DNA from: Sedimentisphaerales bacterium
GTDB taxonomy: Bacteria > Planctomycetota > Phycisphaerae > Sedimentisphaerales > UBA12454
NCBI GenBank assembly: GCA_049518795.1
Contig: JBEKRK010000001.1
Location: forward strand, 654,477 to 718,476
DNA length: 64,000 bases
Direction: 5' to 3'
The position numbers and the translations under genes are program-made. Below are positions 2,114-52,475 of this stretch, one piece after another (positions within the stretch are counted from its first letter, which is position 1; each line of letters opens with the position of its first letter). The notes below the pieces were generated by a model. The model was given only the letters and a program-made list of their open reading frames with translations, did no database searches and was not told where the DNA came from.

Positions 2114-5100
2114 ATGCCCAAAAGAACAGATATCCACAAAATAATGATAATAGGCTCCGGTCCTATAGTAATAGGCCAGGCTTGTGAATTTGACTATTCC
2201 GGCGCCCAGGCCTGCAAGGCCCTGAAAAAAGAAGGTTTCGAGGTCGTGCTGGTCAACAGCAATCCTGCAACTATTATGACCGACCCGGAACTGGCCGACC
2301 GCACCTATATCGAGCCGATTACTCCGGAAATGGTTGAAAAAATCATTAAAAAAGAAAAGCCGGACTGCCTCCTGCCGACACTCGGCGGACAAACCGGACT
2401 TAATACCGCTGTCGCACTTGCGGAAAGCGGCGTCCTGAAAAAATATAATGTCAAACTTATCGGCGCTGATTTGGCCACGATAAAAAAGGCTGAGGAACGC
2501 GACAGATTCAAGAAAATCATTCTCGATATCGGCCTGAAAGTGCCGAAAAGCGGCTACGCCCACAACTGGGAAGAAGCTCAAAAAATTGTCGAGCAGGTCG
2601 GTTTTCCCGCGATTATCCGCCCTTCTTATACATTAGGCGGAACAGGCGGAAACGTCGCTTATAACGCTGAAGAATACAAGGAATTCATATGTTGGGGATT
2701 GAATCTGAGTCCAAAAAGACAGGTGTTGGTTGAAGAATCGGTCCTTGGCTGGAAAGAATATGAACTGGAAGTGATGCGCGACAAAAAAGACAACGTTGTG
2801 ATTGTCTGCTCGATAGAAAATCTTGACCCGATGGGAATCCATACCGGCGACAGCATAACAGTGGCACCTGCTCAGACGCTCACCGACAAGGAATACCAGA
2901 CGATGCGCGATGCGGCGCTGAAAATTATGAGGGCCATCGGCGTCGAAACAGGCGGCTCGAATATCCAGTTTGCCGTTAATCCCGAAACCGGCAAAATGTG
3001 TGTAATCGAAATGAATCCGCGAGTTTCGAGAAGCTCGGCACTTGCCTCAAAGGCTACCGGTTTCCCGATTGCAAAAATCGCCTCGCTGCTGGCCGTAGGT
3101 TTCTCCCTCGATGAAATACCAAACGACATAACCAAAAGGACGCCTGCCTGCTTTGAGCCTACAATCGACTACTGTGTAGTTAAATGGCCAAGATTCACCT
3201 TCGAAAAATTTCCGGCAACAAAACCGGAACTGACTATCCAGATGAAAAGCGTCGGCGAAGCAATGGCAATCGGAAGAACATTTAAGGAGGCATTCCAGAA
3301 GGCAATCCGCTCGCTTGAAATAAACAGATATTCGCTTGATAGAAAACATATCGACTCAACAATCGACAACGACCGGCTCAAACAATTGCTGCGGACCAAC
3401 CGCTGGGACAAAATCTGGTATGTCGCCGAGGCTCTCAGAAGAAAACTGCCGGTGAGTGAAATTTATGAGCTTACAAAAATCGACCCCTGGTTTTTGAACA
3501 ACATAGACCAGATTGTCCAGTTCGAGGACAAAATAAGCATTAAAAATCTCAAACAAGCCAAAAAATTAGGCTTCAGCGATAAATATATAGCGTCAAAATT
3601 GAATATTACCGAGCCGCAGCTTAGAAAACAGCGGGTTACAGATAGAATTTCCGCCGTTTATAAGATTGTCGATACCTGCGGCGCAGAATTTGAGGCAAAT
3701 ACGCCTTATTTGTATTCGACTTATGAAGACCAGTGCGAGGCAAACCCGACAAAGAGAAAAAAAGTCATAATTCTCGGCGGCGGGCCAAACCGAATCGGGC
3801 AGGGAATCGAATTCGACTACTGCTGCTGCCATGCGGCATTTGCACTGAAAGAAATCGGTATCGAATCCATAATGGTCAACTGCAACCCCGAAACGGTAAG
3901 CACGGATTACGACACATCAGACAGACTTTATTTTGAGCCTTTGACTTATGAAGACGTGATGAACATTGTCGAAAAAGAAAAGCCCGACGGCATTATCGTT
4001 CAGTTCGGAGGCCAAACGCCGCTGAAACTTTCAAACGCCCTTTCAAAAGCCGGCGTGAAAATCATCGGCACAAGTCCCGACAGCATCGACGCCGCCGAGG
4101 ACAGAAAACGGTTTAACAAAATAGTCGAAAAATTAAAGCTCAATCAGCCGCCGAGCGGAACAGCTATGAATTATGAGCAGACAGTCAAAATCGCAAAGAA
4201 ATTAGGCTATCCTCTGCTTATACGGCCATCGTTCGTATTGGGCGGAAGAGCGATGCAAATAGTTTATGACGAAACAGAATTGAAAAGCTGCGTCGAAAAC
4301 GCAATAGCCGTTTCGGAGCAGCATCCGATACTCATCGACAAATTCCTCGACGACGCAATGGAACTTGACGTTGACGCAATAAGCGACGGCAAAATTGTCG
4401 TTATCGGCGGAGTTATGGAACATATCGAGGAGGCGGGTATCCATTCGGGCGACAGCGCCTGCTCTCTGCCGCCGTTTTCGTTAAGCCCCGCCTTAATCAA
4501 GGAAATAAAACGGCAGACTAAAATGCTCGCACTGGAACTGAATGTGATAGGCTTGATGAATGTCCAGTTCGCTGTAAAAGACGGCCAGATTTATATACTC
4601 GAAGTCAATCCGCGAGCTTCAAGAACAGTGCCGTTTGTCAGCAAGGCAATCGGCGTGCCGCTGGCCAAGCTGGCCGCGAAGGTTATGGCAGGAAAAACAC
4701 TTAAAGAACTCGGATTCACAGAAGAGGTGCATCGCAGTTACTTTTCCGTTAAGGAAGCGGTATTTCCATTCCTGAAATTCCCCGGCTGCGATACGCTGCT
4801 TGGGCCTGAAATGCTATCGACCGGCGAAGTAATGGGACTGTCAGATGATTTCGGTATCGCTTACGCGAAATCACAAATTGCCGCGGGCAATTCTCTGCCG
4901 ACAAACGGAAATGTTTTTATCAGCGTTAAAGACGCTGATAAGCCAAAGGCTGTTCAAATAGCCAAAAAACTTCACCAGATGGGATTTAAACTCCTCGCTA
5001 CAAAGGGAACCTGTATCGAGTTAATTAAGAACAACGTGCCTTCTGAATTCGTATTGAAAATGGCCGAAGGCAGACCGCACATAGTAGATTTAATTATAAA

Positions 5101-5299
5101 TAATCAGATTGCATTGATTATAAATACTACAATCGGCAAACAAACTATTAAAGATTCGTTTGCGATAAGAAGAACCGCTCTTGACCGCAACATGCCTTAT
5201 ACCACGACAATCAGGGGCGCAGCGGCGGTTACAAAAGCAATCGAATCGCTGAAACAGAAAAAAACTGAAGTTAAGCCAATACAATTGTATTACGGATAA
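2114..5299 (+). CDS. carB: carbamoyl-phosphate synthase large subunit
   Basis: 1061 aa with duplicated ATP-grasp halves ([21 protein letters not shown] and [21 protein letters not shown]) and a C-terminal MGS-like domain. Confidence 0.97.
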
Positions 5300-5309
5300 G
5301 GAAATATGA

Positions 5310-5420
5310 ATCCCGCACCTTCTAAATATTCAATTCGGAGGTATGGGATGGTCCTTAAGAATTTAAAGATTTACATAAAAACACATAAAAATTAAAAATG
5401 AATTAAAGAAGGTGCGGGAT
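5310..5420. repeat. inverted-repeat cassette A (111 nt, 14 bp perfect arms) between carB and carA
   Basis: 5310-5323 atcccgcaccttct is the exact reverse complement of 5407-5420 agaaggtgcgggat. Confidence 0.9.
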
Positions 5421-6549
5421 GAAAGGCATATTACTACTCGAAGATGGAACCTGTTTTAAAGGCTGCGGATTCGGAGCCGAAGGCAAAAAGTGCGGCGAAG
5501 TCGTCTTTAATACCGCTATGACCGGCTATCAGGAAATCCTTACAGACCCTTCCTATCACGAACAGATTGTAACTATGACCTATCCTTTAATAGGAAACTA
5601 CGGCACAAATCTGCTCGATGTTGAATCCAATAAACCTTTCCTGAGCGGTTTTGTTGTAAAGGAAAACTGCAATTTTCCAAGCAACTGGAGAAACGACTTA
5701 TCGCTTGATGAATATCTTAAAAAATATAATATCCCCGCTATTGAGGACATCGACACCAGAAAATTGGTTATGCTCCTGCGTCAAACCGGTGCGATGAGAG
5801 GGATTATCTGCACAGATGGAACAAGTATCAAAGAGCTGAAAGGCGAACTTGATAAATACCCCGGCCTTGTTGACAGAGACATTGTGAAAAACGTCTGCAC
5901 AAAAAAGAGCTATATTTGGGACAAACCCGTCGAAAATGAATTCGGCCAGGCTGTCCGACCACAGGCTAAATATAACGTTATAGCCTTTGATTACGGCATA
6001 AAGCAGAATATACTGCGGCTTTTAGTTTCGCACGGCTGTAAAGTTACAGTTGTTCCGCCGCAGACGACCGCTGAGGAAATACTTAAGCAAAAACCCGACG
6101 GCGTATTTTTGAGCAACGGCCCCGGCGACCCCGGTCCTATAAGTTATGCAATCGAAACGATACACAGACTGCTCGGCAAAGTGCCGATATTCGGGATTTG
6201 CCTGGGACATCAGCTTTTGGGTCTTGCAATCGGCGGCAAAAGTTTCAAACTAAAATTCGGCCATCACGGCGCAAACCATCCAGTCAAGAATCTTATTACC
6301 GAGAAAATCGAAATTACCAGTCAGAACCACGGCTTTTGCATCGACCCGGATTCGATTTTAGATAAAGACGTGCAGATTACACATATAAATCTCAATGACA
6401 ACACACTGGAAGGTTTCCGCTGCAAAAATGCCCCTGCTTTTGCCGTTCAATATCACCCCGAAGCATCGCCCGGCCCGCACGATTCTAACTACCTGTTCGA
6501 CGAATTTATCGAACTGATGAATCCCGTTAGAAATCACCTATTGAGATAA
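5419..6549 (+). CDS. carA: carbamoyl-phosphate synthase small (glutaminase) subunit
   Basis: 376 aa. Class-I glutamine amidotransferase motif GICLGHQLL, plus HGANHPV and YHPEASPGPHD. Confidence 0.95.
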   Translation: MKGILLLEDGTCFKGCGFGAEGKKCGEVVFNTAMTGYQEILTDPSYHEQIVTMTYPLIGNYGTNLLDVESNKPFLSGFVVKENCNFPSNWRNDLSLDEYLKKYNIPAIEDIDTRKLVMLLRQTGAMRGIICTDGTSIKELKGELDKYPGLVDRDIVKNVCTKKSYIWDKPVENEFGQAVRPQAKYNVIAFDYGIKQNILRLLVSHGCKVTVVPPQTTAEEILKQKPDGVFLSNGPGDPGPISYAIETIHRLLGKVPIFGICLGHQLLGLAIGGKSFKLKFGHHGANHPVKNLITEKIEITSQNHGFCIDPDSILDKDVQITHINLNDNTLEGFRCKNAPAFAVQYHPEASPGPHDSNYLFDEFIELMNPVRNHLLR

Positions 6550-6620
6550 AATTTAAGGGATAGCTTCTTTTCGAAATATTGTTGCAAAAGGGTTATAATT
6601 GGAAAGATTTCTAACGGGAT
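6521..6620. repeat. inverted-repeat cassette B (100 nt, 15 bp perfect arms) spanning the carA 3' end
   Basis: 6521-6535 atcccgttagaaatc is the exact reverse complement of 6606-6620 gatttctaacgggat. Confidence 0.9.
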
Positions 6621-6702
6621 GAACAAAGAATCGAGAAAATAACAGGATTCTGCGTTCAGGAGATTTGTTGCAATCAATATCTAAAACGATTACTATGAGG
6701 GA

Positions 6703-7416
6703 ATGGGCGAACAGATAAAGCAACAAAAAAGAAGACTGCCAAAAGCAGGAACTATCGAGGTCGCGCCATCAGTTCTAAGCGCGGATTTCGCAAATCTTGC
6801 CGCTGAAATCGCGGATATCGAAAAGGCAGGCGTGAAAATAGTCCACCTCGACGTGATGGACGGCCATTTCGTGCCGAACATAACCTTTGGCCCCCCTGTT
6901 ATTGAAAAGCTGCGAAAATACTCGAACCTCGTTTTCGACGCCCATTTAATGATAAGCGAGCCGGAAAGATACGCCGATGATTTTATAAAGGCAGGCGTTG
7001 ACCATATCACCTTCCATATAGAAGTAGTGCCAAACCCAACAGACTTTATCAAAAAACTCCACGGTTCCGGCATTACGGCAGGATTGTGTCTTAATCCAGA
7101 AACGCCGGTATCGAAAATCGAAAAATACGCTTCACTGGCGGATATGATTCTTGTAATGACGGTCCATCCGGGGTTTGGAGGTCAGCATTTCATTCAGGAC
7201 GCTGCTGAGAAAATAAAGCCTATTCGTCAAATAGTCGGACCGAATATCCGCATTGAGGTTGACGGCGGAATCGACCCGGATACCACTCCTATTGTTACCT
7301 CTCTTGGAGCAGATACGCTCGTAGCAGGCAATGCAATATTCTCAAAGCCCAATCGCGCTGCGGCTATTGAAGCAATCCGAAAAGCTTGTAAACCCCCACA
7401 CCTATTTATATTATGA
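6703..7416 (+). CDS. rpe: ribulose-phosphate 3-epimerase
   Basis: PSVLSADFANL, HLDVMDGHFVPN and VDGGI motifs. SD gaggga lies upstream of the ATG. The last 8 codons lie inside inverted-repeat cassette D. Confidence 0.93.
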   Translation: MGEQIKQQKRRLPKAGTIEVAPSVLSADFANLAAEIADIEKAGVKIVHLDVMDGHFVPNITFGPPVIEKLRKYSNLVFDAHLMISEPERYADDFIKAGVDHITFHIEVVPNPTDFIKKLHGSGITAGLCLNPETPVSKIEKYASLADMILVMTVHPGFGGQHFIQDAAEKIKPIRQIVGPNIRIEVDGGIDPDTTPIVTSLGADTLVAGNAIFSKPNRAAAIEAIRKACKPPHLFIL

Positions 7417-7496
7417 CGTCAAAATGGAAGAAATACCCAAAATTACTTTGGCCGGCTTTAAAAAAAACACAACCAAAGGATAAATAGGTGTGGGGG
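7393..7496. repeat. inverted-repeat cassette D (104 nt, 17 bp perfect arms) spanning the rpe 3' end
   Basis: 7393-7409 cccccacacctatttat is the exact reverse complement of 7480-7496 ataaataggtgtggggg. Confidence 0.9.
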
Positions 7497-7526
7497 TAAA
7501 TAACACTCGATTTTTACAAACAATTC

Positions 7527-7535
7527 TGATATAAT
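7527..7535 (+). promoter_or_regulatory. extended -10 promoter element (TGaTATAAT) upstream of accD
   Basis: TG at 7527-7528 and TATAAT at 7530-7535. No good -35. Confidence 0.4.
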
Positions 7536-7551
7536 CTCCCCTGCTTTAACA

Positions 7552-8424
7552 ATGAGTATGATTAAAACTATGGCTAAAAAACCAAAAGCAAGCTGGGACG
7601 GCTTTAGTCTAAAGCCAAGAAAAGAGATGCCGGAAGGCCTGTGGCTCAAATGCCCCGGATGCGGGAAAACTCTCTTCAAAAAGTCTGTTACAGAAAATAT
7701 GGATGTCTGTCCAGAATGTAACTATCATTTTCGTATTGGAGCAGGCAAAAGGCTCAAATACCTCGTTGACGAAGGCTCCTTTGAAGAGATGCTGGCTGAT
7801 ATGGTTACGGCTGACCCGCTGGATTTCCAATTTCGCGGGACTTCATATAAAGAACGTGCAAAGGAGGCTGAAAAGGCTGCGGCAGGCAAAGAGGCAATGC
7901 TTATCGGCAAGGCATTTATAAAGGGAAGGCCGTTGATGCTCGCTGTAATGGATTTCGACTACTTAGGCGGTTCAATGGGTGCTGTTGTGGGCGAAAAATT
8001 GAGCGTCGCTATTGAAAAGGCAATAGAAGATTCACTGCCTCTTGTTGTAGTAAGCTCGACAGGCGGGGCAAGAATGCACGAAGGCGTTGTTTCGCTTGGT
8101 CAAATGGCAAAGACCAGCGCGGCACTGGCCAAATTAGACGATAGCGGTGGTCTTTTTATATCGGTTTTGACAGACCCGACTACTGGCGGAGTTACGGCAA
8201 GCTATGCGATGTTAGGAGATGTTATTATCGCTGAACCCGGCGCGTTAATAGGTTTTGCCGGGCCGCGAACAATATATGAGACAATTAAGGTCGCATTGCC
8301 TAAAGGTTTTCAAAGGGCTGAATTCCTGCTCGAACACGGCTTTGTCGATTCGATTGTCCACCGCAAAGACTTAAGAAGCGAGATAGCCCGCCTGATAGAC
8401 TACTGCGGTAAAAATCCAACGTAA
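7552..8424 (+). CDS. accD: acetyl-CoA carboxylase carboxyltransferase beta subunit
   Basis: N-terminal Zn ribbon CPGCGKTL...CPECNYH followed by a carboxyltransferase domain (GGSMG, GGARMHEG). Confidence 0.93.
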   Translation: MSMIKTMAKKPKASWDGFSLKPRKEMPEGLWLKCPGCGKTLFKKSVTENMDVCPECNYHFRIGAGKRLKYLVDEGSFEEMLADMVTADPLDFQFRGTSYKERAKEAEKAAAGKEAMLIGKAFIKGRPLMLAVMDFDYLGGSMGAVVGEKLSVAIEKAIEDSLPLVVVSSTGGARMHEGVVSLGQMAKTSAALAKLDDSGGLFISVLTDPTTGGVTASYAMLGDVIIAEPGALIGFAGPRTIYETIKVALPKGFQRAEFLLEHGFVDSIVHRKDLRSEIARLIDYCGKNPT

Positions 8425-48506: not shown

Positions 48507-48540
48507 ATTAAACTGATAACTGATAACCGAGTAAATATGA

Positions 48541-48644
48541 ATCCCGTTAGACCTCTTTGATGTTTATGTTTTATAATGGTGAGAAAGTTATGCATTATTA
48601 TACAGATTTTCAAATTAATAGATTGCAGTGAGGTCTAACGGGAT
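48541..48644. repeat. inverted-repeat cassette C (104 nt, 15 bp perfect arms) on the start of the Pta-N-like gene
   Basis: 48541-48555 atcccgttagacctc is the exact reverse complement of 48630-48644 gaggtctaacgggat. Confidence 0.9.
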
Positions 48645-49743
48645 GAAACCACTTTATATTAGCGCAACCGTTCAGGATAGCGGCAAGACCGCCGTAATAT
48701 GCGGCCTGATTCAGCATTTGCGAAAACAAGGCTATAATCCCGGCTATATCAAGCCTGTCGGCCAGCGTTATGTCCAGTATGAAGGCCACAACATTGACGA
48801 AGATGCTGTGCTTGTGCATCAGGCCTTTGACTACGAGGACCACCCTTCCGATATGAGCCCAATCGCTGTTGAAGAAGGCTTCACTTCAAAATTCATTCAA
48901 AATCCCGATGTCTCCTCTCTTGAGCAGCGGATAATGAACAGTTTCAACAAACTGACACAAAAACATTCTATGATTATCGTCGAAGGCACGGGGCACGCCG
49001 GCGTTGGAAGCTGTTTTGGTCTGTCGAACGCCCGTGTCGCGCAGATGCTCGATGCAAGAGTCGTCATAGTCTCCTCCGGCGGCATCGGCAGGCCGATAGA
49101 TGAAGTATCTATGTCGCTTGCTTTATTTAAGCAATATAAGGTGGACGTTATCGGTGTCCTTTTGAATAAAATCTACCCGCAAAAATACGAAAAAATAAAC
49201 AAAATTGCGCCGAAGGGATTGGAGCTTATCGGCACAAAGCTCATCGGCCATATTCCTTACGATTCATCGCTTTCATTTTTCAGTATTGGCCAGGTAGCTG
49301 AGGAGCTTGAGTATGATGTCCTTTGCGGCCAGGAATCGCTTTCCAACAAAATCGGCCATACGGTTGTTGCAGCTATGGAGCCGCAGAACGTGCTTCGCTA
49401 CATCGAAAAAAACACCCTGATAATCACGCCCGGCGACCGTATTGACAATATATTACTCACTTTGGCATTGTCCGAATCAGTCGATTTCCACGATAAATTA
49501 TGCTCCTGTGGCCTGATTCTTACCGGCGGCTTAAAACCGGATTCGACTATTCTTTCGCTCCTTTTAAGGAGCACCCTTCCGGTGCTTCTTACTGATGAGG
49601 ACACATTTACGGTAACGGCAAAGATGAAGGATTTGCATTTTAAGATTCGTTCTAAAGACACCGACAAAATCGCCCGCACTTACGAACTCTTGCGCAACAA
49701 CGTCGATATCGATACAATTCTTAAAAGTTTGTCTGTTGATTAG
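48643..49743 (+). CDS. phosphotransacetylase N-terminal-like protein (BioD-like P-loop domain plus DRTGG domain), no Pta catalytic domain
   Basis: LYISATVQDSGKT P-loop and a later DRTGG-type region (ITPGDRID). I preferred the ATG at 48643, which has SD gaggt 8 nt upstream, over the GTG at 48628. Confidence 0.75.
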   Translation: MKPLYISATVQDSGKTAVICGLIQHLRKQGYNPGYIKPVGQRYVQYEGHNIDEDAVLVHQAFDYEDHPSDMSPIAVEEGFTSKFIQNPDVSSLEQRIMNSFNKLTQKHSMIIVEGTGHAGVGSCFGLSNARVAQMLDARVVIVSSGGIGRPIDEVSMSLALFKQYKVDVIGVLLNKIYPQKYEKINKIAPKGLELIGTKLIGHIPYDSSLSFFSIGQVAEELEYDVLCGQESLSNKIGHTVVAAMEPQNVLRYIEKNTLIITPGDRIDNILLTLALSESVDFHDKLCSCGLILTGGLKPDSTILSLLLRSTLPVLLTDEDTFTVTAKMKDLHFKIRSKDTDKIARTYELLRNNVDIDTILKSLSVD

Positions 49744-52355: not shown

Positions 52356-52475
52356 TTTGCTTTAAGGCGTAATTGCGCAGCGGTAAAAAATTCAATTACA
52401 GACCCGTTGAAGTTTGACTTCAAAAAGGGGCTGTTTGAATTTTACAGTGTTCGCAGAACACCGCCTTAAAGCAAA
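52356..52475. repeat. inverted-repeat cassette F (120 nt, 14 bp perfect arms), intergenic upstream of fhs
   Basis: 52356-52369 tttgctttaaggcg is the exact reverse complement of 52462-52475 cgccttaaagcaaa. It also has internal sub-hairpins taattg/caatta and gaagt/acttc. Confidence 0.85.

What the first reader, a model, noticed from the sequence alone, without database searches (positions are those of the whole stretch)
6517..6642. Cassette B appears inserted inside the carA 3' end: it recodes the CarA C-terminus and leaves the ancestral tail as an orphan mini-ORF
carA now ends ...FIELMNPVRNHLLR*, with MNPVRN encoded by the 5' arm. The 3' arm is followed by ATGAACAAAGAATCGAGAAAATAA (6619-6642; MNKESRK*). 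Deleting the cassette plus one copy of the flanking ATGAA joins them in frame to give ...FIELMNKESRK*. That tail has a plausible length for CarA: from memory, E. coli CarA has about 9 residues after FIEL. This is the signature of an insertion with a 5-bp direct duplication (ATGAA). The interior also carries a TATAAT (6594-6599) oriented toward rpe, so the cassette may have brought a promoter, as Correia elements do in Neisseria.
Basis: partly seen in the sequence, partly recalled or inferred. Interest (0 to 1): 0.6.

Follow-up and report, generated by a model that had tools for sequence, protein, structure and literature searches.

The report
Mobile hairpin element recodes CarA tail
A 98-base, gene-less copy of a tiny jumping element has landed in the last codons of the carA gene of an uncultivated planctomycete and replaced the enzyme's last six amino acids; it is an off-target copy of a widespread, barely described family that normally lands on start codons and whose full copies carry only a 91-residue nuclease gene.

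Summary
A 98-bp element with perfect 15-bp inverted ends sits in carA between the codons for Met367 and Asn368. It is flanked by a duplicated TGAA, which reads as ATGAA on both sides. All 18 relatives whose carA end I could read lack it, and their CarA ends ...M(N/D/E)K(T/V/A)K*. One same-genus genome has CTGATGAACAAA at the site, which is the predicted empty site. The "orphan" MNKESRK* is therefore the old tail.

The duplication is 4 bp, not 5. The A of the right-hand ATG is the element's own last base. Other copies carry other 4-mers (TACA, TTTA, TTAA, CGCA, CCAG).

The element is one of at least 33 copies in this genome. Twenty of the 23 ATGAA-flanked copies sit exactly on a gene's start codon. 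A 270-bp full-length relative is a single 91-codon GIY-YIG nuclease gene that starts at the left ATG and stops at a TGA overlapping the rebuilt host ATG.

The same ends occur in many phyla. The closest published system is Ssn/NTS (PMC11893778), which describes no transposition. This scan has found the same class before, in candidate-phyla-radiation (CPR) genomes and elsewhere in this genome. The promoter idea is untested, and the tool for finding sequencing runs was closed.

The parts
5419..6549 (+). carA as it now reads (376 aa). The last 9 residues (NPVRNHLLR) are encoded by the inserted element.
   Evidence: ORF list. Pfam CPSase_sm_chain plus GATase; the GATase match ends at residue 365, just before the insertion.
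6518..6521 (+). Left copy of the 4-bp target-site duplication TGAA, inside codons ATG-AAx of carA.
6522..6619 (+). Inserted element core (98 bp, TCCCG...CGGGA): a gene-less 'T3' subfamily copy of the GIY-YIG micro-element family.
   Evidence: Family census; absent from relatives; T3 copies in relatives share its layout.
6521..6535 (+). Left terminal inverted repeat arm ATCCCGTTAGAAATC. In the carA frame it encodes (N)PVRN, the same residues that open the family's nuclease ORF (MNPVRP).
6547..6549 (+). New carA stop codon (TAA) inside the element.
6594..6599 (+). TATAAT box, conserved in position among T3 copies. A candidate -10, untested.
6606..6620 (+). Right terminal inverted repeat arm GATTTCTAACGGGAT.
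6620..6623 (+). Right copy of the target-site duplication TGAA. Together with the element's last base A (6619) it forms ATG.
6619..6642 (+). Orphaned ancestral carA tail (MNKESRK*), including the old stop codon at 6640-6642.
   Evidence: It aligns with the relatives' tails MNKTK*, MDKVK* and INKAK*.
6703..7416 (+). rpe (ribulose-phosphate 3-epimerase), the downstream gene. It is now 153 nt from the carA stop instead of 60 nt.
5306..5423 (+). Sister copy (T2 subfamily, arms ATCCCGCACCTTCT) sitting exactly on the carA start codon.
   Evidence: Relatives have TAAGGAATAACAGTGAAAGGC with no element.
48537..48647 (+). Sister copy (T1 subfamily, arms ATCCCGTTAGACCTC) on the start codon of the gene whose product begins MKPLYISAT.
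   Evidence: Four same-genus relatives have the empty site ...ATGAAACCACTT.

Best explanation
**What it is.** Cassette B is a non-autonomous, gene-less copy of a family of very small mobile elements with terminal inverted repeats.

**What is shown.**
- It inserted into the word TGAA that spans codons Met367-Asn368 of carA and duplicated those 4 bases.
- carA now reads into the left arm, acquires NPVRNHLLR and stops at a TAA inside the element.
- The former last six codons plus stop codon are left behind the right arm. There the element's last base A and the duplicated TGAA rebuild an ATG, so they look like a 7-codon mini-ORF.
- Full-length family members (270 bp between the flanks) consist of one ORF for a 91-aa single-domain GIY-YIG nuclease. 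The first codons (MNPVRP) and the last codons (GLTG) are encoded by the two arms.
- That ORF starts at the left ATG(AA) and stops at the TGA that overlaps the rebuilt ATG of the host gene.
- Most copies sit exactly on start codons.

**What is inferred.**
- The nuclease recognises the hairpin that the two arms form in single-stranded DNA and cuts next to it, as shown for Ssn nucleases. Host repair then completes insertion at TNNA words, above all TGAA.
- At a start codon the element borrows the host's ribosome-binding site and ATG for its own ORF, and hands back a Shine-Dalgarno sequence (SD), an ATG and an ATGA stop/start overlap. This keeps the host gene translated.
- Cassette B is an off-target landing on an internal in-frame ATGAA. 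It was tolerated because it lies one residue beyond the last Pfam-domain residue, in a tail that varies among relatives.
- It most likely has no function for the host. A contribution of its TATAAT box to downstream transcription is possible but untested.
For: **Anatomy at the stated coordinates**.

**Empty sites in relatives.**
- carA 3' end: 18 of 18 relatives whose carA end could be read are empty, and G004 reads CTGATGAACAAAACAAAATAA.
- carA start: relatives read TAAGGAATAACAGTGAAAGGC with no element. G002 and G005 carry a different subfamily there, with left GTGAA and right ATGAA.
- The element at 48537: 4 of 4 relatives are empty.

**The flank is a real target duplication.**
- Other identical 4-mers flank other copies: TACA, TTTA, TTAA, TGAG, CGCA, CCAG.
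- In other phyla, 58 of 81 copies have identical 4-mers in register, and 43 of those are TGAA or TTCA.

**Family size.** There are 33 copies in this genome. The pattern is present in 21 of 26 genomes of the taxonomic family, with 0 control hits.

**Start-codon seat.**
- In 20 of 23 ATGAA-flanked copies, the right ATG opens an ORF of 86-1029 aa.
- Only 32-43% of tolerable ATGAA words (candidate starts plus intergenic) are candidate starts. The binomial p is at most 5e-7.

**Parent element.**
- G000:C1:105310-105579 is a 91-aa ORF, Pfam GIY-YIG E = 2.7e-13. Its best solved relative is the UPF0213 protein 1zg2, E = 1.5e-6.
- Intact copies exist in G001, G002 and G018.
- T1 gene-less copies are internal deletions of the parent, with peptides MNPVRPVWFYISVLMCEK...GGLTG. 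The ATG-to-ATG distance is 2 mod 3 in 26 of 35 copies, and 7 keep the ATGA overlap.
- Genomes with an intact parent have a median of 29 pattern matches, against 4 in genomes without one.

**Translation signals.** The 16S tail is CCUCCU, and the T1 and T2 right arms carry AAGGAGGT or AGAAGGTG 4-8 nt before the ATG.

**Published biochemistry.** Ssn GIY-YIG nucleases bind hairpin repeats in ssDNA and cut a few nt 5' of them. They also cut when the stem is formed by two separate strands (PMC11893778).
Against: - No transposition event was observed and no enzyme activity was tested. GIY-YIG nucleases hydrolyse DNA and are not known to join strands, so the insertion chemistry is unexplained.
- No full-length element with cassette B's own inner arm sequence (TTAGAAAT) exists in the 26 genomes of the family. 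Its mobilisation by the T1 nuclease, which shares the outer 11 nt, is an assumption.
- The start-codon enrichment could partly reflect selection after insertion rather than targeting. Copies and genomes are related, so the p-values overstate the case.
- T2 and T3 copies do not keep the 2-mod-3 frame.
- The published SRM (Ssn-related motif) search consensus does not match these ends.
- No RNA or read data could be consulted.
Confidence: 0.85

Rival explanations
1. It is an ordinary MITE moved in trans by a conventional transposase (DDE or similar) encoded elsewhere. On this view the small GIY-YIG gene found between the same ends is cargo or coincidence.
For: Terminal inverted repeats plus a fixed-length target duplication are the classic footprint of DDE transposases (established knowledge). 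GIY-YIG nucleases have no known strand-transfer activity. 4-bp TNNA duplications and CCC-type ends recall the IS1380/piggyBac group (my own knowledge, a lead only).
Against: There is no IS1380-family transposase in the genome. No longer element bounded by these ends was seen among unpaired arms. The only coding versions in four genomes carry the nuclease ORF alone, and its first and last codons are the arms themselves. The gene-less T1 copies are in-frame deletions of that ORF. Only one transposase family was searched, so this rival is weakened but not excluded.
Confidence: 0.1
2. The hairpin is a native regulatory structure between carA and rpe (terminator, attenuator or mRNA stabiliser), and MNPVRNHLLR is the natural CarA tail.
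For: The region folds strongly as RNA (-36.1 kcal/mol, z = -4.0) and lies at a gene boundary.
Against: It is absent from all 18 relatives whose carA end could be read. It has at least 33 sister copies at unrelated loci. It is flanked by a duplication of the empty-site word. No T-run follows the stem, and no Rfam family matches.
Confidence: 0.02
3. The insertion was kept because it matters to the host. Its TATAAT box (6594-6599) would act as a portable promoter for rpe, as the first reader suggested by analogy with Correia elements.
For: TATAAT or TTATGG sits at the same place, 20-25 nt before the right ATG, in most T3 copies of five genomes. The scan finds TCGAAA-17-TATAAT, 10 of 12 matches.
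Against: The scan finds one promoter-like site in the region, against 1.2 on average in shuffles. The -35 region is not conserved among copies. rpe has a candidate promoter of its own, TTGCAA-N17-TACTAT, ending 6 nt before its ATG (read). No transcript data were available.
Confidence: 0.2
4. It is an invertible (phase-variable) DNA segment bounded by inverted repeats.
For: Inverted repeats bracket a short AT-rich segment that contains a -10-like box.
Against: In all long copies the interior has the same orientation relative to the host gene. Copies are flanked by target duplications and have empty sites in relatives. Reads that could show both orientations were not available.
Confidence: 0.02

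Closest known systems
Ssn nucleases with NTS/SRM hairpin repeats (Chenal et al. 2025, Nat Commun, PMC11893778)
   Same: Both have a single-domain GIY-YIG protein of about 90-95 aa whose gene is bracketed by copies of a hairpin-forming repeat, and that repeat is scattered in many gene-less copies over the genome. The foot of the hairpin is alike: NTS reads TGTCAT-TCCCGCG, and here the bottom strand reads TTTCAT-CCCGCAC or GTTCAT-CCCGTTAG. The authors themselves note that NTS-ssnA-NTS looks like an insertion sequence.
   Different: The paper describes no target duplication, empty sites, start-codon seat or deletion derivatives. It proposes a role in natural transformation. Here the two arms lie 70-270 nt apart rather than forming a 28-nt hairpin, and the published SRM consensus does not match them. 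Membership of the protein in cd10448 could not be tested. Canonical NTS-like hairpins also exist in this genome as a separate repeat.
Bacterial MITEs such as Correia/NEMIS elements of Neisseria (my own knowledge)
   Same: Both are short gene-less elements with terminal inverted repeats and a target duplication. They are co-transcribed with neighbouring genes, can alter gene ends, and sometimes carry promoter-like boxes.
   Different: Correia elements duplicate TA, have 26-bp ends and are about 100-155 bp with no known coding parent. Here the duplication is 4 bp (TNNA), the ends differ, and the parent is a 270-bp nuclease gene.
Rickettsia palindromic elements (RPE) (my own knowledge)
   Same: Both are small palindromic repeats that insert in frame into protein-coding genes and become part of the protein. 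Here that applies to CarA's new tail and to an in-frame 72-bp copy inside an acetate-kinase-like ORF.
   Different: RPEs have no known coding parent or start-codon preference. Chenal et al. do list Rickettsia among the SRM-rich genera.
IS200/IS605 with their PATE derivatives, and REP/RAYT systems (my own knowledge; discussed in PMC11893778)
   Same: Both involve small elements or repeats that are handled as single-stranded DNA hairpins by a small nuclease, and both have sequence-specific target words.
   Different: Those systems use HUH tyrosine transposases, have separate subterminal hairpins and make no target duplication. Here one hairpin is formed by both ends, a 4-bp duplication is made, and the protein is a GIY-YIG nuclease.
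Free-standing GIY-YIG homing endonuclease genes such as the seg genes of phage T4 (my own knowledge)
   Same: Both are a selfish GIY-YIG nuclease gene wedged between host genes.
   Different: Homing copies a gene into the same locus of a naive genome and leaves no inverted ends or target duplication. This family occupies dozens of unrelated loci.

Membership tests
Bacterial MITE (non-autonomous element with terminal inverted repeats) | Terminal inverted repeats | tested here: met
   Perfect 15-bp arms at 6521-6535 and 6606-6620.
Bacterial MITE (non-autonomous element with terminal inverted repeats) | Target-site duplication of fixed length, with a single copy at empty sites | tested here: met
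   TGAA lies on both sides. G004 has a single CTGATGAACAAA. Other copies carry other identical 4-mers.
Bacterial MITE (non-autonomous element with terminal inverted repeats) | Many dispersed copies, small size, no transposase gene | tested here: met
   At least 33 copies of 60-120 bp. Cassette B's only reading frame is the 10-codon run-in from carA.
Bacterial MITE (non-autonomous element with terminal inverted repeats) | A coding parent element with the same ends | tested here: inconclusive
   A parent exists for T1 arms, which share the outer 11 nt ATCCCGTTAGA. No parent with cassette B's full arm exists in 26 genomes.
Ssn/SRM system (PMC11893778) | Single-domain GIY-YIG protein of about 94 aa with catalytic Tyr, Tyr and Glu | tested here: met
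   The parent ORF is 91 aa, Pfam GIY-YIG over residues 9-75. By my reading, Y12, Y23 and E69 are spaced like Y6, Y17 and E64 of SsnA.
Ssn/SRM system (PMC11893778) | Protein belongs to CDD family cd10448 | not testable with these tools
   No CDD search was on hand. The nearest solved proteins are UPF0213 proteins 1zg2 and 1ywl.
Ssn/SRM system (PMC11893778) | Repeat matches the SRM search consensus HGTCWY..YYVSBRH..WNVSBRG..RNCYNB | tested here: not met
   The regex gives no hit on cassette A, cassette B or the parent. It gives 13 hits elsewhere in the genome against 4 in the reversed control, including canonical TGTCATTCCCGCGCAAGCGGGAATCCAG.
Ssn/SRM system (PMC11893778) | Nuclease gene flanked by the repeat on both sides | tested here: met
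   The arms bracket the ORF in G000, G001, G002 and G018.
Ssn/SRM system (PMC11893778) | ssDNA-specific cleavage a few nt 5' of the hairpin | not testable with these tools
   This needs purified protein and oligonucleotides.
Correia element (CREE/NEMIS) | TA target duplication and the Correia 26-bp ends | tested here: not met
   The duplication is TGAA and the ends are ATCCCGTTAGA.... The comparison with Correia ends is from my own knowledge.
Homing endonuclease gene | Spread confined to the cognate locus, with no inverted ends or target duplication | tested here: not met
   Dozens of unrelated loci carry copies with ends and duplications.

The most novel reading that the evidence does not exclude
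The family is a new class of autonomous prokaryotic transposon, the smallest known at about 270 bp. Its only protein is an Ssn-like GIY-YIG single-strand nuclease. It carries no promoter, ribosome-binding site, start codon or stop codon of its own.

It lands on (N)TGAA at a host start codon, is translated from the host's own initiation signals, and returns an SD, an ATG (made with its own last base) and an ATGA stop/start overlap to the host gene. Identical ends in CPR bacteria, Omnitrophota, Planctomycetota, Proteobacteria, Desulfobacterota and Chloroflexota would mean it crosses phyla.

Cassette B would then be a natural off-target event. It shows that the enzyme reads the word TGAA and not the start-codon context.
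Probability: 0.45. Interest if true: 0.85.

Novelty: new variant of a known kind. Interest (0 to 1): 0.6.

Why it matters
**For this gene.** CarA's annotated C-terminus is element-derived, and the "mini-ORF" is a fossil of the old tail. This is a clean, datable example of a mobile element rewriting a protein end. Proteins that begin MNPVR/MNPAP or end GLTG in these lineages should be read with that in mind.

**For the family.** An in-gene, non-start copy with a perfect empty site in a relative is direct evidence that the element moves and duplicates TGAA. It also separates what the insertion machinery recognises (a 4-base word) from where copies survive or thrive (start codons).

**More broadly.** If the 91-aa nuclease is the mover, this would be a transposition mechanism outside the DDE, HUH, serine and tyrosine classes. 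It would also give the published Ssn/NTS system a biological rationale as a selfish element. The identical ends across phyla point to wide horizontal spread in uncultivated bacteria.

Tried and rejected
- **Rfam.** A scan of 5000-8000 at permissive E-values gave only two chance-level hits.
- **IS1380-family transposase.** I suspected it from the CCC-type ends and 4-bp duplication, but it is absent from the genome. Unpaired arms did not reveal a longer element.
- **Parent with cassette B's own arm.** A full-length parent with TTAGAA...TTCTAA arms was not found in 26 genomes.
- **Empty allele in metagenome contigs.** The first pattern gave 0 hits. The second gave one hit, which is an unrelated HEPN/DUF86 gene start and not carA.
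- **5-bp versus 4-bp duplication.** The fifth base matches in most copies, but fails where the native start is GTG or the left flank reads CTGAA. I settled on 4 bp.
- **Published SRM consensus.** It does not match these ends.
- **Literature.** Searches for start-codon-targeting elements, and for GIY-YIG elements with inverted ends, found nothing beyond Chenal et al..
Full report
**1. The observation**

The window carries carB (2114-5299), carA (5419-6549) and rpe (6703-7416), confirmed by Pfam. At the end of carA the sequence reads GAACTG-ATGAA-TCCCGTTAGAAATC...70 nt...GATTTCTAACGGG-ATGAA-CAAAGAATCGAGAAAATAA.

- The arms 6521-6535 and 6606-6620 are a perfect 15-bp inverted repeat.
- carA ends ...FIELMNPVRNHLLR*, with its stop at 6547-6549.
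- The 24 nt after the right arm read MNKESRK*.
- TATAAT is at 6594-6599.
- As RNA the region folds at -36.1 kcal/mol, z = -4.0 against shuffles.

**2. It is an insertion: empty sites**

I fetched carA from 30 related genomes; the end of the gene could be read in 18 of them. None has the cassette.

- Same-genus genomes end ...FIELMDKVK*, ...FIELMGKVK*, ...FIELINKAK* and ...FIKLMNKTK*.
- Other genera of the family end mostly ...M(E/D)KAK*.
- G004 reads AAGCTGATGAACAAAACAAAATAA. Removing the cassette and one TGAA from the window gives GAACTGATGAACAAAGAATCGAGAAAATAA, which has the same junction.

The mini-ORF is therefore the old tail. It is two codons longer than in relatives, and downstream synteny also differs. 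The Pfam GATase match ends at residue 365, and the insertion follows Met367. Tails after this Met vary from 3 to 14 residues among relatives, which explains why the insertion was tolerated.

I searched metagenome contigs for an empty allele of this very species and found none.

**3. It belongs to a family, and the flank is a true duplication**

The genome (G000, 2.9 Mb, 8 contigs, 43.5% G+C) holds 33 pairs of ATCCCG...CGGGAT arms 60-270 bp apart. They fall into subfamilies whose arms co-vary:

- T1: TTAGACCT.
- T2: GCACCTTCT.
- T3: TTAGAAAT, which includes cassette B.
- Short 61-73-bp forms with two internal hairpins.

Most copies are flanked by ATGA...GAA. Others carry TACA, TTTA, TTAA, TGAG, CGCA or CCAG on both sides. 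Where the outermost "repeat" base pair differs, the flanks change with it. So the core is TCCCG...CGGGA and the duplication is 4 bp.

Two further empty sites confirm this:

- At the carA start, relatives read TAAGGAATAACA-GTGAA-AGGC. G002 and G005 carry a different, T3-like element there, with left GTGAA and right ATGAA. The A of the rebuilt ATG is therefore the element's last base.
- At 48537, four same-genus relatives read ...ATGAAACCACTT with no element.

The strict pattern occurs in 21 of 26 genomes of the taxonomic family, 2 to 43 times each, with 0 hits for the reversed control. The exact ends ATCCCGTTAGA...TCTAACGGGAT occur in more than 118 contigs of species-representative genomes. These span Patescibacteria, Omnitrophota, Planctomycetota (Sedimentisphaerales, Pirellulales), Gammaproteobacteria, Smithellaceae and Limnocylindrales. 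In that set, 58 of 81 copies have identical 4-mers in register on both sides, and TGAA or TTCA accounts for 43.

**4. Where copies normally sit**

Of the 23 copies flanked by ATGAA on both sides, 20 have the right ATG as the first start of an ORF of 86-1029 aa. The exceptions are:

- cassette B;
- an in-frame copy inside an acetate-kinase-like ORF;
- one copy followed by only 6 codons.

A crude gene call gives 7230 ATGAA words in coding sequence, 1047 in intergenic sequence and 492-778 at candidate starts. If only non-disruptive sites were tolerated, 32-43% of copies should be at starts. The observed 20 of 21 gives p of 5e-7 or less.

So the target word alone does not explain the seat. Either there is further targeting, or selection acts for the element, whose ORF is only translated at a start. 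Copies are not independent, which overstates the p-value.

**5. The coding parent**

Translating from the left ATG of each copy showed that one 270-bp copy, G000:C1:105310-105579, is a single 91-codon ORF. It reads MNPVRPIWFYTYVLMCEK...YLKTGMGKRYLNNRLKRGLTG*.

- It is a GIY-YIG domain (Pfam E = 2.7e-13). Its nearest solved relatives are the UPF0213 proteins 1zg2 and 1ywl.
- The arms encode its first and last residues.
- The ORF begins at the left ATG(AA) and its TGA stop overlaps the rebuilt host ATG (ATGA).
- Intact copies with the same layout occur in G001, G002 and G018.
- A T2 parent is at G000:C1:227542. A third family, with arms ACCCTCACACCAATGGT, has parents in G001 and G002.

T1 gene-less copies are internal deletions of the parent, for example MNPVRPVWFYISVLMCEKTDIFYAGCTIKGGLTG. 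The ATG-to-ATG distance is 2 mod 3 in 10 of 11 copies here and in 16 of 24 in relatives. Lengths step by 3 (98, 101, 104, 107, 110), and 7 copies keep an open frame ending in the ATGA overlap.

The organism's 16S ends CCUCCU. T1 and T2 right arms carry AAGGAGGT or AGAAGGTG 4-8 nt before the ATG.

The four genomes with an intact T1 parent have 22-43 pattern matches. The other 22 have a median of 4.

Cassette B's subfamily has no parent of its own in these 26 genomes. It shares only the outer 11 nt with T1. It has a third, degenerate arm inside, so its layout is hairpin, then spacer, then arm.

**6. How it most likely works**

*Shown:* insertion with a 4-bp duplication at TNNA words, chiefly TGAA; presence/absence between species; a nuclease-only parent that uses host start and stop signals.

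*Inferred from published work:* Ssn GIY-YIG nucleases bind hairpin repeats only as ssDNA and cut a few nt 5' of the stem. The three bases before the stem matter most. The enzymes still cut when the stem is formed by two separate molecules (PMC11893778). The bottom strand of these elements reads (T/G)TTCAT-CCCG..., against NTS TGTCAT-TCCCG.

*Inferred here:* at a start codon the host's ribosome-binding site drives the element's ORF. Ribosomes open the arm hairpin that buries the element-borne SD and ATG, and they terminate at ATGA. In this way the host gene stays translated.

For cassette B none of this applies. It hit an internal in-frame ATGAA, so carA reads the arm in the nuclease's own frame (NPVRN) and soon meets a stop codon. 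I see no evidence of benefit to the host. The conserved TATAAT is a lead for an outward promoter, but the scan finds no more sites than in shuffles, and rpe has its own candidate promoter next to its ATG.

**7. Comparison with what is known**

The closest published system is Ssn/NTS. The authors remark that NTS-ssnA-NTS looks like an insertion sequence. They report no duplications, empty sites, deletion derivatives or start-codon seat. Their SRM consensus does not match these ends, and cd10448 membership could not be tested.

It works like a MITE, but it is not a Correia element: the duplication, the ends and the existence of a parent all differ. Literature searches found no description of start-codon-seeking GIY-YIG elements.

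This scan has met the same class before. It was reported in CPR genomes (e1-867853, e1-795260, e1-1054707, e1-1565459, e1-4796877, e1-1061459, e1-1072575, e1-4816315) and twice elsewhere in this genome (e1-5253998, e1-2401308). I found the parent ORF before reading those notes. They gave me the lead to the Chenal paper.

**8. Verdict**

The copy itself is an ordinary, probably neutral mobile-element insertion. Its value is as a clean off-target case for an unusual and apparently undescribed element family.

Limits: no reads or transcripts could be consulted, no enzymology was done, and the genomes compared are related.

Noticed in passing
window 5306-5423: A T2-subfamily copy sits exactly on the carA start. 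Relatives have a GTG start with an SD and no element. G002 and G005 carry a different (T3-like) element at the same site, with left GTGAA and right ATGAA. The same start codon was therefore hit independently or the element was replaced, and a GTG start was converted to ATG.
   Followed up: yes
window 48537-48647: A T1 copy sits on the start of the gene whose product begins MKPLYISAT. Four relatives have the empty site. In three of them TATAAAT lies 6 nt before the ATG, which suggests a leaderless mRNA. The element would then have inserted into a leaderless start.
   Followed up: partly
window 7392-7497: A cassette with 18-bp arms ACCCCCACACCTATTTAT sits in the last codons of rpe, flanked by (G)TAAA. 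Removing it leaves ...KACK*. Its arms resemble those of a third GIY-YIG-carrying element (ACCCTCACACCAATGGT, 299 bp) found in G001 and G002 (loci L045, L047).
   Followed up: partly
G000:C2:602851-602924 (outside the window): A 67-bp structured copy (arms plus two small hairpins) adds 72 bp including the duplication. It is inserted in frame in an acetate/butyrate-kinase-like ORF and adds 23 residues (NPVRNKASMMPDGCQRQPVSNGM), much like a Rickettsia palindromic element.
   Followed up: partly
G000:C1:372603, C1:399280, about C1:226536, about C2:104990, C4:47607 (outside the window): Canonical Neisseria-type NTS/SRM hairpins (TGTCATTCCCGCGCAAGCGGGAATCCAG) are present in this planctomycete as a separate repeat. 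There are 13 regex hits against 4 in the reversed control.
   Followed up: no
L188 632-657 (metagenome contig JAEEGL012263327.1): The reconstructed empty site ACTGATGAACAAAGAATCGAGAAAATAA matches 28 nt exactly at the start of an unrelated HEPN/DUF86-type gene that follows a nucleotidyltransferase gene. This is probably chance in an A-rich coding word, but I estimate fewer than 0.1 such hits are expected.
   Followed up: partly
G000 genome-wide; in the window, for example 52356-52475: Several other families of short inverted-repeat elements are present: AAAACTTGCGCG...CGCGCAAGTTTT (112 bp, at least 12 copies with conserved flanks), TTTGCTTTAAGGC...GCCTTAAAGCAAA (120-143 bp) and TTTGTTTCAACAA...TTGTTGAAACAAA (about 128 bp).
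   Followed up: no
G000:C1:375805-376029 and C2:722063-722275 (outside the window): Two further small GIY-YIG genes without the inverted ends lie next to or between tRNA genes. The second lies inside a direct repeat of a tRNA 3' end at a contig end.
   Followed up: no
window 6668-6702: TTGCAA-N17-TACTAT ends 6 nt before the rpe ATG (GAGGGA-ATG). This is a candidate promoter for a near-leaderless rpe mRNA, below the scan tool's threshold.
   Followed up: no
G002:C34 (L053) versus G000:C1:105310-105579: The orthologous gene (product begins MKTN(G/I)QY(T/A)Q(R/K)LKKL) carries a T3 gene-less copy at its start in G002 and the full-length T1 nuclease element in G000. This is a second case of one start codon occupied by different subfamilies in different species.
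   Followed up: partly
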